Virus record (IMG/VR): IMGVR_UViG_3300036792_000284
Location: 32,001-96,000 of that record
Reading direction: 5' to 3' (one strand)
DNA from: a virus
DNA: 64,000 nt
This document shows, one piece after another, positions 20,343-20,479 of the stretch (position 1 is the stretch's first letter; each line of letters begins with the position of its first letter). The translations under genes were made by a program, and so were the position numbers. Below the pieces are notes generated by a model. That model was not told the origin of the DNA and did no database searches. It saw only the letters and a list, made by a program, of their open reading frames with translations.

Positions 20343-20479
20343 TAGACGGGCGGAGTGCTGCCGTTACACCACAGCCCTCAGCTCCTCGGGGCGGCCTACC
20401 CCGGCGTCCCTGGTGGCCACCAGGTCGGCGCGGAACCTTCGCGAGAGCTGCCGGGGACTTGAACCCCGGACTGCCGCCC
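20343..20479 (-). ncRNA. Circularly permuted tRNA-like RNA 1 (YrlA-like topology)
   Basis: 3' half (anticodon 3' strand, T-arm, acceptor 3' strand) precedes the 5' half (acceptor 5' strand, D-arm, anticodon 5' strand); the halves are mutually complementary. Confidence 0.85.

What the first reader, a model, noticed from the sequence alone, without database searches (positions are those of the whole stretch)
20343..20479. Circularly permuted tRNA-like RNA between two tRNA-Pro genes, broken exactly at position 37/38
Seen (minus strand): immediately after the CCA of Pro(CGG) comes G-GGCGG-CAGTC-CGGGG TTCAAGT CCCCG-GCAGCTCT. A 65-nt insert follows with three hairpins, including the perfect palindrome CCTGGTGGCCACCAGG. 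Then comes AGGGCTG-TG-GTGT AACGGCA GCAC-T-CCGCC-CGTCTA, abutting nt 1 of Pro(TGG). The acceptor strands (AGGGCTG/CAGCTCT) and anticodon-stem strands (CCGCC/GGCGG) are complementary. Joining the ends gives a 7-nt loop CGUCUAG. There is no CCA after the acceptor, and a second partner strand (GGAGCTG) could form an alternative fold. Known: permuted tRNA genes occur in some algae and an archaeon; bacterial YrlA RNAs have this T-acceptor-D order, with the Ro-binding stem extending the anticodon stem. Here that extension is absent and the insert is on the acceptor side. Inference: a tRNA mimic with a pre-cut anticodon loop (decoy for anticodon nucleases or RNA ligases), or a precursor matured by ligation.
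Basis: partly seen in the sequence, partly recalled or inferred. Interest (0 to 1): 0.92.

Follow-up and report, generated by a model that had tools for sequence, protein, structure and literature searches.

The report
Naked tRNA mimic in phage tRNA array
The 137-base spacer between two proline tRNA genes of this uncultured actinobacterial phage really does fold like a tRNA with its halves swapped, but it is one of a recurring family of Y-RNA-type tRNA look-alikes in phage tRNA operons, here without the usual protein-docking handle or Ro60 gene, and not a tRNA waiting to be ligated.

Summary
Observation confirmed. On the minus strand, 20343-20479 reads: closing helix, T arm, acceptor hairpin with a 65-nt insert, D arm, closing helix. 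ARAGORN calls the rejoined halves a tRNA; 0 of 20,000 random genome 137-mers and 0 of 5,000 shuffles do.

It is not unique. A second module lies between the two tRNA-Ala genes (20931-21059). Syntenic arrays of related phages hold 1-4 such modules each, and all four helices covary (96% paired, 12 of 21 pairs with double changes, 0/500 shuffles).

The fold has the topology of the tRNA-like core of YrlA Y RNAs. Sister modules hit only that core in Rfam YrlA (25-30 bits, gathering 69); this element gets no hit. No Ro60/TROVE gene is found in this genome or five complete relatives. Cultured relatives (Magritte, NootNoot) have Ro60 and mount the module on a GNCGAAG-type handle.

"Broken exactly at 37/38" is not a family feature. 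The helix can be 6 bp, leaving 5 nt; 3' tails run from 2 to over 100 nt; position 33 is G. None of the RNA ligase families searched was found.

Best reading: a handle-less YrlA-type tRNA mimic released by processing of the flanking tRNAs; its partner is unknown. This scan noted Ro-linked versions earlier in other phages. New variant of a known kind.

The parts
20480..20558 (-). Upstream tRNA-Pro(CGG) with encoded CCA. Its 3' end defines the 5' end of the module.
   Evidence: ARAGORN; Rfam tRNA 64.8 bits
20474..20479 (-). Closing helix, 5' strand GGGCGG (the equivalent of anticodon-stem positions 38/39-43)
   Evidence: Pairs with CCGCCC at 20348-20353; aligned to the closing helix of model R2
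20452..20468 (-). T arm: CGGGG / TTCAAGT / CCCCG, with a canonical T-loop
20444..20450 (-). Acceptor 3' strand CAGCTCT. No CCA follows it.
20379..20443 (-). 65-nt insert in the acceptor loop. It holds the hairpin CGCG-AAGGTTC-CGCG, the palindrome CCTGGTGGCCACCAGG (20409-20424), a T-arm-shaped hairpin CGGGG-TAGGCCG-CCCCG, and the alternative partner GGAGCTG (20379-20385).
   Evidence: No homologue of this insert was found.
20372..20378 (-). Acceptor 5' strand AGGGCTG: 7 bp with CAGCTCT, including a G·U at 3:70
20355..20369 (-). D arm GTGT / AACGGCA / GCAC, preceded by U8 G9. A14, G18, G19 and A21 are present.
   Evidence: The same 20-mer is the D-arm half of ordinary bacterial tRNA genes.
20348..20353 (-). 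Closing helix, 3' strand CCGCCC
20343..20347 (-). 5-nt single-stranded tail GTCTA, which is also the RNase P leader of the next tRNA
20270..20342 (-). Downstream tRNA-Pro(TGG). RNase P cleavage at its +1 would define the 3' end of the module.
20931..21059 (-). Second, better-conserved module of the same class, between tRNA-Ala(GGC) and tRNA-Ala(CGC), with a 65-nt insert
   Evidence: model R2 69.1 bits; homologues in L003, L006 and L007 with compensatory changes

Best explanation
The spacer encodes a handle-less YrlA-type tRNA mimic. This is a circularly permuted tRNA-like domain (variable loop, T arm, 7-bp acceptor hairpin carrying a 65-nt insert, D arm) closed by a 5-6 bp helix that stands in for the anticodon stem.

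Proposed mechanism:
1. It is transcribed as part of the phage's 33-34-tRNA operon (inferred).
2. It is cut out 'for free' by the enzymes that mature its neighbours. 3'-end processing of tRNA-Pro(CGG) makes its 5' end and RNase P cleavage at +1 of tRNA-Pro(TGG) makes its 3' end (inferred; no RNA data).
3. The conserved T-loop and D-loop bases let it take the tRNA L-shape (inferred from sequence).
4. The 7-bp acceptor stacked on the T arm makes it a likely RNase P and CCA-adding substrate, as was shown for M. smegmatis YrlA. That would split it into two paired ~36-nt halves (inferred by analogy).
5. It then acts in trans as a tRNA-shaped ligand for tRNA-binding proteins of the host (inferred; partner unknown).

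It is not a decoding tRNA. Unlike the same module in Ro60-encoding relatives, it has no Ro-binding handle, and the phage clade has no Ro60 gene.
For: - The permuted cloverleaf exists and is far beyond chance.
- The class recurs. There is a second module in this window. Modules lie at the Ala-Ala, Ala-Pro, Pro-Pro, Pro-Phe and Gln-Thr spacers of related phage arrays, and one lies outside an array.
- Structure is under selection. On nine modules 96% of cells pair, 12 of 21 pairs have changes on both sides, 0/500 shuffles reach this, and slid controls pair at 36-48%. An independent parse of 18 modules gives the same picture, with U8 and A14 in 15 of 18 and an A15-U48 or G15-C48 Levitt pair in 9 of 18.
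- The element aligns full length to the family model (25.5 bits; E = 1.4e-6 for a 161-base stretch searched with filters off).
- Rfam YrlA matches sister modules only over its tRNA-like core, positions 17/24-84/92 of 114.
- Ro-encoding phages carry the same module on a handle next to Ro60: L021, L022, NootNoot and Magritte.
- No TROVE, DUF2828 or homologue of a phage Ro60 was found in this genome or five complete relatives.
- The module starts 0-6 nt after an upstream tRNA in 16 of 18 parsed modules (0-2 nt in 13). Only 9 of 33 tRNAs encode CCA, so host 3' processing is needed throughout the array.
- No promoter-like site or convincing terminator lies inside the array.

From the literature: M. 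smegmatis YrlA, with a 7-bp acceptor stem, is cut by RNase P and receives CCA (Chen et al. 2014, PMC4201824).
Against: - This particular element is a singleton. No homologue of its sequence was found in 14 related loci, IMG/VR or cultured phages, so covariation is shown for the class and not for it.
- It is the weakest member (25.5 bits against 55-75 for the others).
- It has non-canonical details: G33, A15·C48, and a register slip at the T/acceptor junction.
- A competing fold is 2 kcal/mol more stable.
- Rfam YrlA does not hit it even at E <= 10.
- No binding partner is identified.
Confidence: 0.6

Rival explanations
1. Decaying relic. The element is debris of tRNA-gene rearrangement, for example a partial tandem duplication followed by loss of the outer halves, or the remains of a Y RNA after Ro60 was lost. 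It has no present function in this phage.
For: - It is a singleton, the lowest model score in the family, with an alternative fold, G33 and a register slip.
- Modules are gained and lost between close relatives. The Pro-Pro spacer is 0 nt in L009 and a plain 60-66-nt spacer in L006 and L008.
- Myrna shows a tRNA-Asp followed by a spare 5' half that pairs with its acceptor strand, a plausible intermediate.
- Its D-arm half is identical to that of ordinary bacterial tRNA genes.
Against: - All four helices (6+5+7+4 bp) and the tertiary-contact bases U8, A14, G18, G19, T54, psi55, C56 and A58 are intact in a 72% G+C background.
- Modules of the same architecture occupy the same Pro-Pro site in L003, L004, L007, L010 and L013 with covarying stems.
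- The class as a whole shows compensatory evolution.
Confidence: 0.15
2. Cis-acting processing or insulator element. The tRNA-shaped spacer works only within the precursor. It would offer RNase P, RNase Z or exonucleases an extra entry or stop point, or keep neighbouring isoacceptor tRNAs from misfolding with each other, and is then degraded.
For: - The junction with the 3' end of the upstream tRNA is tight (0-6 nt in 16 of 18 parsed modules).
- Modules cluster between similar isoacceptor pairs (Ala/Ala, Pro/Pro).
- Most array tRNAs lack encoded CCA and need endonucleolytic 3' processing.
- One relative group even carries an RNase P RNA in the array.
Against: - Most tRNA junctions in the same arrays, 1-15 nt long, do without such modules.
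- One module stands outside any array (L004 20252-20321).
- In Ro-encoding phages the same module is part of free-standing Y-like RNAs.
- Conserved D-loop/T-loop tertiary bases and Levitt-pair covariation go beyond what a simple spacer hairpin needs.
Confidence: 0.12
3. True permuted tRNA gene. The ends made by flanking-tRNA processing are ligated into an anticodon loop, and RNase P plus 3' trimming then open the acceptor end, as in red-alga permuted tRNA genes, to give a decoding tRNA.
For: - RNase P would leave a 3'-OH and RNase Z-type cleavage a 5'-phosphate, held side by side by the closing helix. This geometry suits an Rnl1-type ligase (inference only).
- ARAGORN reads the joined form as tRNA(UCU).
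Against: - The joined loop has G at position 33, and can close to 5 nt.
- Leftover lengths differ among modules (2-9 nt, or 36-171 nt), with no conserved anticodon.
- The array already has tRNA-Arg(UCU).
- No RtcB, Rnl2-type ligase or CCA-adding enzyme was found in this genome or in complete relatives. Rnl1 was not searched.
- Bacteria lack the splicing endonuclease/ligase route used by algae and archaea (established knowledge).
Confidence: 0.04

Closest known systems
YrlA, the tRNA-like Y RNA bound by bacterial and mycobacteriophage Ro60/Rsr (Rfam RF02553; Chen et al. 2014, PMC4201824)
   Same: - Same strand order: variable region, T arm, acceptor hairpin, D arm, closed at the anticodon-stem side.
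- Conserved T-loop and D-loop bases and a covarying 15-48 pair.
- A 7-bp acceptor stem, as in the RNase P-cleaved M. smegmatis YrlA.
- Sister modules hit the Rfam model's core.
- Ro-encoding relatives (NootNoot, Magritte, L021, L022) carry the same module beside Ro60.
   Different: - No basal Ro-binding stem and no GNCGAAN0-1G motif at the 5' end; the closing helix is directly flanked by complete tRNAs.
- No Ro60 gene was found in this genome or in five complete relatives.
- Rfam score is far below gathering (no hit for this element).
- A 65-nt insert sits in the acceptor loop.
Circularly permuted tRNA genes of Cyanidioschyzon merolae and other algae, and of an archaeon (my recollection: Soma et al. 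2007; Chan et al. 2011; reviewed in PMC4090602, listed but not read)
   Same: The 3' half is encoded upstream of the 5' half, with a linker between the acceptor strands.
   Different: - Those genes yield canonical decoding tRNAs through a bulge-helix-bulge junction, a circular intermediate and a splicing ligase.
- Here there is no canonical anticodon loop, no conserved junction and none of the ligase families searched, and the host is a bacterium.
Two-piece (permuted) tmRNA of alpha-proteobacteria and cyanobacteria (Rfam RF04321)
   Same: Permuted tRNA-like domain: T arm and acceptor 3' strand lie upstream of the acceptor 5' strand. There is a G·U at 3:70 in this element and in two of the Ala-Ala modules.
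   Different: - No mRNA-like reading frame or pseudoknots.
- ARAGORN finds no tmRNA.
- Rfam tmRNA_permuted gives only 14.6-17.9 bits against a gathering score of 47.
- G3·U70 is not conserved across the family.
Stable small RNAs embedded in phage tRNA clusters (T4 species 1 and 2 RNAs) and tRNA-punctuated RNAs such as mascRNA (from my own knowledge; not tested here)
   Same: Non-tRNA small RNAs placed among tRNA genes, or shaped like tRNA, so that RNase P and 3' processing define their ends.
   Different: No sequence relationship. Those RNAs are not permuted cloverleaves. The mascRNA model gives only 18.7 bits here.

Membership tests
YrlA (Rfam RF02553; Y RNA-like) | tRNA-like domain in the order T arm - acceptor hairpin - D arm, with the RNA ends at the anticodon-stem side | tested here: met
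YrlA (Rfam RF02553; Y RNA-like) | Score at or above the curated Rfam gathering threshold (69 bits) | tested here: not met
   No YrlA match on 20200-20650 even at E <= 10 and none in the window at gathering. Sister modules reach 25.8-30 bits.
YrlA (Rfam RF02553; Y RNA-like) | Ro-binding module: a basal helix formed by the 5' and 3' ends, with a GNCGAAN0-1G motif near the 5' end (Chen et al. 2014) | tested here: not met
   The closing helix of 5-6 bp abuts tRNA-Pro(CGG) and lies 5 nt from tRNA-Pro(TGG). Rfam hits on sister modules cover only model positions 17/24-84/92 of 114. A CGCGAAGG word lies in the acceptor insert, not at the 5' end, and does not fit the motif exactly.
YrlA (Rfam RF02553; Y RNA-like) | Encoded within about 4 kb of a Ro60/TROVE gene on the same strand | tested here: not met
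   No TROVE in G000 (82% complete) or in five 97-100% complete relatives. No DUF2828 (its control did not ring). No homologue of a phage Ro60. Positive cases: Myrna, L021, L022, Magritte and NootNoot.
YrlA (Rfam RF02553; Y RNA-like) | Bound by Ro60/Rsr in vivo | not testable with these tools
   Needs immunoprecipitation. The host and its Rsr status are unknown.
Permuted tRNA gene (algal/archaeal type) | 3' half encoded upstream of the 5' half, with the rejoined sequence recognised as a tRNA | tested here: met
   ARAGORN on the rejoined halves
Permuted tRNA gene (algal/archaeal type) | The junction restores a canonical 7-nt anticodon loop (U33, purine 37) with an anticodon conserved among homologues | tested here: not met
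   The loop would be CGUCUAG with G33, or 5 nt if C32-G38 pair. Tails differ in length and sequence across modules.
Permuted tRNA gene (algal/archaeal type) | A ligation machinery is available (splicing endonuclease and ligase, or a phage RNA ligase) | tested here: inconclusive
   RtcB was not found in G000 or five relatives, and Rnl2-type RNA ligase was not found in G000 and four complete relatives. T4 Rnl1-type ligase was not searched, and the host's enzymes are unknown.
Two-piece tmRNA | Permuted tRNA-like domain together with a tag reading frame and pseudoknots | tested here: not met
   ARAGORN reports no tmRNA. tmRNA_permuted scores 14.6-17.9 bits against a gathering score of 47 on sister modules. 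Here the closing helix is followed directly by a tRNA.

The most novel reading that the evidence does not exclude
The tRNA-like domain of Y RNAs has a job of its own that does not need Ro60. In this Ro-less phage clade it is expressed naked from the tRNA operon, cut by RNase P and given CCA. It then works as a two-piece tRNA look-alike, for example a sponge or decoy for host enzymes or defence toxins that recognise the acceptor/T-arm end of tRNA. Alternatively it pairs functionally with the separate handle-like RNAs of the same operon (8-bp terminal stem plus GCCGAAG at about 20559-20675 and 20153-20269) to recruit the host's Ro60. Either way it would make the long-open question 'what does the tRNA-like module of YrlA do?' testable in isolation.
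Probability: 0.2. Interest if true: 0.8.

Novelty: new variant of a known kind. Interest (0 to 1): 0.5.

Why it matters
Chen et al. (2014) left the function of the tRNA-like module of bacterial and phage Y RNAs open. Here the module occurs on its own: it has no Ro-binding handle, it lies in phages where no Ro60 gene was found, and it is framed by tRNAs whose processing should release it precisely. It is kept by selection, as covarying helices across relatives show. That points to a Ro-independent role and gives a clean natural construct to test. It also shows that standard annotation misses a recurrent RNA class inside actinophage tRNA arrays. ARAGORN, tRNA models and the Rfam gathering threshold all pass over it, and the published YrlA search rule (within 4 kb of Ro60, discarding tRNA-adjacent hits) would exclude it by design.

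Tried and rejected
- Sequence homologues of this element. Junction and 3'-half words gave no IMG/VR hit. blastn against cultured phages matched only the flanking tRNA-Pro genes. blastn against the 14 related loci gave nothing significant.
- Descent from a Ro-linked Y RNA. A 22-nt word of the 5' half occurs exactly in two IMG/VR phages, inside permuted modules about 100 nt upstream of Ro60 ORFs. I first read this as specific descent from a Y RNA. I withdrew that reading because the inner 20-mer is the D-arm half of ordinary tRNA genes (Gln, Asp, Gly, His) in at least 120 metagenome contigs. It shows tRNA ancestry only.
- Internal duplication. The insert hairpin CGGGG-TAGGCCG-CCCCG looked like a degenerate copy of the T arm, but local alignment is no better than shuffles (826 of 2,000 shuffles score as high).
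- Donor tRNA. No tRNA of the arrays is a clear recent donor of either half.
It is enriched in the window (22 against 7.8 expected), but here it is simply the T-arm-like hairpin stem. I found no further meaning.
- Thermodynamics. The z-score is -1.2 on the sense strand and -0.9 on the antisense strand, which is uninformative at 72% G+C.
- Model specificity. Tandem tRNA junctions score 20-49 bits with my covariance models, as Chen et al. warned, so only hits that do not overlap tRNAs were counted.
- blastn of the sister modules against cultured phages found nothing or only tRNA T arms.

Full report
SETTING. The window is bases 32001-96000 of a 124-kb IMG/VR virus record, estimated 82% complete and about 69% G+C. 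Its minus strand carries a 5-kb array of 33 ARAGORN tRNAs at 16233-21421. A 34th, tRNA-Tyr(GTA) at 16462-16547, is missed at default settings. The array lies downstream of the large terminase gene (22417-24381). The nearest cultured relatives by terminase are Microbacterium phage Magritte (46% amino-acid identity) and Streptomyces phages such as NootNoot (31%), so the host is an actinobacterium. Only 9 of the 33 tRNAs encode CCA. No promoter-like site or convincing terminator lies inside the array.

- GGGCGG, CAGTC, then T arm CGGGG/TTCAAGT/CCCCG, one extra G, then acceptor 3' strand CAGCTCT
- a 65-nt insert containing the palindrome CCTGGTGGCCACCAGG
- acceptor 5' strand AGGGCTG, TG, then D arm GTGT/AACGGCA/GCAC, T, CCGCCC, and the tail GTCTA

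ARAGORN calls the 5' half joined to the 3' half a tRNA. I ran the same 'join the ends' test on all 186 spacers of at least 60 nt in this and 14 related arrays. It returned only junction-spanning calls and no ordinary missed tRNA. Controls gave 0 of 20,000 random 137-mers of this genome and 0 of 5,000 dinucleotide shuffles of the element.

Folding energy is not informative: z = -1.2. The minimum-energy fold keeps the closing helix and the T arm but uses the alternative partner GGAGCUG. The tRNA-like fold is 2.1 kcal/mol higher, before any tertiary contacts are counted.

IT IS ONE OF A FAMILY. The terminase query brought in 14 syntenic loci from IMG/VR, whose arrays keep the same gene order. The join test, a hand-written descriptor scan and two covariance models (R1, R2) agree on a class of modules with this layout: a 5-6 bp closing helix, a 3-6 nt variable loop, a 5-bp T arm with a TTCRANY loop, a 7-bp acceptor hairpin, two bases (usually TA), a 4-bp D arm, then the closing helix.

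Members are:
- the second module in this window, between tRNA-Ala(GGC) and tRNA-Ala(CGC) (20931-21059; 69 bits)
- its homologues in L003, L006 and L007
- different modules at the Pro-Pro site in L003, L004, L007, L010 and L013
- Ala-Pro and Ala-Ala modules in L004
- Gln-Thr modules in L003, L006 and L007
- a Pro-Phe module in L014
- a stand-alone copy at L004 20252-20321

The acceptor loop is 3-12 nt in compact members and 41-74 nt in others.

On nine modules aligned to the model, 96% of cells pair, 12 of 21 pairs show changes on both sides, no shuffle out of 500 reaches this, and sliding the partners drops pairing to 36-48%. That alignment is fitted to the model, so I repeated the count with an independent parse of 18 modules. 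The result was the same, with U8 and A14 in 15 of 18 and an A15-U48 or G15-C48 Levitt pair in 9 of 18.

The element of this finding aligns full length to R2 but is the weakest member, at 25.5 bits. No sequence homologue of it was found. The selection argument therefore rests on the class and on positional equivalence at the Pro-Pro site, not on this copy.

WHAT THE BREAK IS NOT. The 'exactly 37/38' reading needs a 5-bp stem and a 7-nt loop CGUCUAG. The flanking C and G can pair, giving 6 bp and a 5-nt tail, and position 33 would be G. In 16 of the 18 parsed modules the module starts 0-6 nt after the upstream tRNA (0-2 nt in 13). The 3' side is far more variable: 2-9 nt in ten, and 36-171 nt in the rest. 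The leftover bases share no anticodon.

None of the enzyme families I searched that could serve such maturation was found. RtcB was absent from this genome and five relatives, and Rnl2-type ligase and CCA-adding enzyme from this genome and four complete relatives. T4 Rnl1-type ligase was not searched. The constant feature is 'directly behind a tRNA', which fits release by the tRNA-processing enzymes rather than a designed anticodon-loop nick.

RELATION TO YrlA. Chen et al. (2014, PMC4201824) described YrlA Y RNAs as a Ro-binding 5' motif (GNCGAAN0-1G) plus a tRNA-like domain in the order T arm, acceptor stem-loop, D arm. They are encoded within 4 kb of Ro60 in more than 250 bacteria and in 22 phages. 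M. smegmatis YrlA, which has a 7-bp acceptor stem, is cleaved by RNase P and receives CCA.

Rfam YrlA (gathering score 69 bits) hits sister modules at 25.8-30 bits, and only over model positions 17/24-84/92 of 114, which is the tRNA-like core. The same is true for a spacer module in mycobacteriophage Myrna (27 bits) and for a Ro-adjacent module in L021 (36 bits). The element itself gets no YrlA hit at E <= 10.

No Ro60 was found in this clade:
- no TROVE in this genome or in five 97-100% complete relatives
- no DUF2828 (the control did not ring, so this is weak)
- no homologue of a phage Ro60

By contrast Myrna, L021, L022, Magritte and NootNoot all encode TROVE proteins, and there the module is mounted on a handle. 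In NootNoot the module at 75996-76067 follows tRNA-Ile(TAT), is preceded by GGGTCGAAG, and lies 3.7 kb upstream of Ro60. In Magritte, tandem units framed by CAGGCTGAAG ... CCCCTGTCTG lie just upstream of the annotated Ro-like gene. In L021 and L022 the modules lie about 100 nt upstream of the Ro60 start codon, and in L021 they are preceded by GACGAAG or CGCGAAG.

The element therefore works like, and probably derives from the same stock as, the YrlA core. It fails three defining tests of the family: the curated score, the handle, and the Ro60 neighbourhood.

A CORRECTION TO MY OWN LEAD. A 22-nt word of the 5' half is identical in the Ro-linked modules of L021 and L022. The inner 20-mer, however, is the D-arm half of ordinary tRNA genes in at least 120 metagenome contigs. 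The identity shows tRNA ancestry, not specific descent from a Y RNA.

MECHANISM: SHOWN AND INFERRED.
Shown:
- the fold, its recurrence and its covariation
- the tight junction with the upstream tRNA
- absence of a handle, and no Ro60 or any of the searched ligase families found

Inferred:
- co-transcription with the array
- release by flanking-tRNA processing
- the L-shaped fold
- RNase P cleavage 5' of AGGGCUG and 3' trimming/CCA addition, by analogy with M. smegmatis YrlA, giving two paired ~36-nt halves
- action in trans on a tRNA-binding partner

The partner is unknown. An anticodon-nuclease decoy is unlikely because there is no anticodon loop to cut. Rivals are a decaying relic (0.15), a cis-only processing element (0.12) and a ligation-matured tRNA (0.04).

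EARLIER NOTES OF THIS SCAN. Other readers had already flagged the second module in this window, and Ro60-linked permuted tRNA mimics inside tRNA arrays of Felix O1-type and other phages. Those notes prompted the DUF2828 and handle checks. The new point here is the naked, Ro-less form.

VERDICT. This is a real feature and a new variant of a known kind (handle-less YrlA-type tRNA mimic).

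Noticed in passing
L010:13548-13929 (+); near-identical loci L011, L015, L016: A bacterial class A RNase P RNA match (113.9 bits, gathering 100) lies inside a phage tRNA array, directly after tRNA-Pro(TGG). 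This would be a phage-encoded RNase P RNA.
   Followed up: no
window 16462-16547 (-): ARAGORN and Rfam at default settings miss a tRNA-Tyr(GTA) in the 86-nt gap between tRNA-His and tRNA-Arg(CCG). It is 77/84 identical to the tRNA-Tyr of L006 and has the loop CUGUAAC.
   Followed up: yes
window ~20559-20675 (-) and ~20153-20269 (-): Two paralogous ~115-nt spacers lie upstream of tRNA-Pro(CGG) and tRNA-Phe. Each has an 8-bp terminal stem (GACGGUGC/GCACCGUC; GACAGCUC/GAGCUGUC) followed by CGAAGCAGG or CGACGCAGG. GCCGAAG fits the Ro-binding motif GNCGAAG of Chen et al.. They may be handle-only Y-like RNAs in a phage without Ro60. A separate finding covers them.
   Followed up: partly
L017 (Myrna NC_011273) 12881-12948: The cultured mycobacteriophage Myrna has an unannotated permuted tRNA-like module in the Met-Ala spacer of its array (R2 36 bits, YrlA 27 bits). 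It is enclosed by a longer basal stem (GGTCTCGG/CCGAGAC) and lies 36 kb from its Ro60 gene, which is outside the 4-kb rule used to find YrlA.
   Followed up: partly
L017 15321-15421: In Myrna, the annotated tRNA-Asp is followed at once by a spare tRNA 5' half whose acceptor strand pairs with the tRNA's own 3' strand. This looks like a partial tandem duplication and is a plausible route to permuted modules.
   Followed up: partly
L154 (Magritte OR553905) 3740-4520: About five tandem small-RNA units framed by CAGGCTGAAG ... CCCCTGTCTG lie upstream of the annotated Ro-like protein gene. Three of them hold a permuted tRNA-like core, and one was annotated as tRNA-Arg(TCT).
   Followed up: partly
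L004:20100-20600: Outside the array, repeated short units share the words GCCAT.GG..AGCTTCCTTC. They flank a stand-alone compact module (20252-20321, 73-77 bits) and a second partial T-arm/D-arm unit near 20510-20560.
   Followed up: no
L008:13205-13643: The 439-nt Ala-Ala spacer of this relative appears to encode an HNH endonuclease instead of a module. HNH genes also interrupt the Myrna and Magritte arrays.
   Followed up: no
window 20976-21010 (-); L007 and L003 Ala-Ala modules: The acceptor-loop inserts of the homologous Ala-Ala modules share the conserved words ATGCGA(A)G and GTACGC.T.GCGGAA.GCC despite different lengths (54-74 nt). This suggests a second functional motif carried by the tRNA-like scaffold.
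   Followed up: no
L006:16440-16518: ARAGORN calls a tRNA with anticodon TCA (opal-reading, labelled SeC) at the array position where the window and other relatives have a tRNA-Met(CAT).
   Followed up: no
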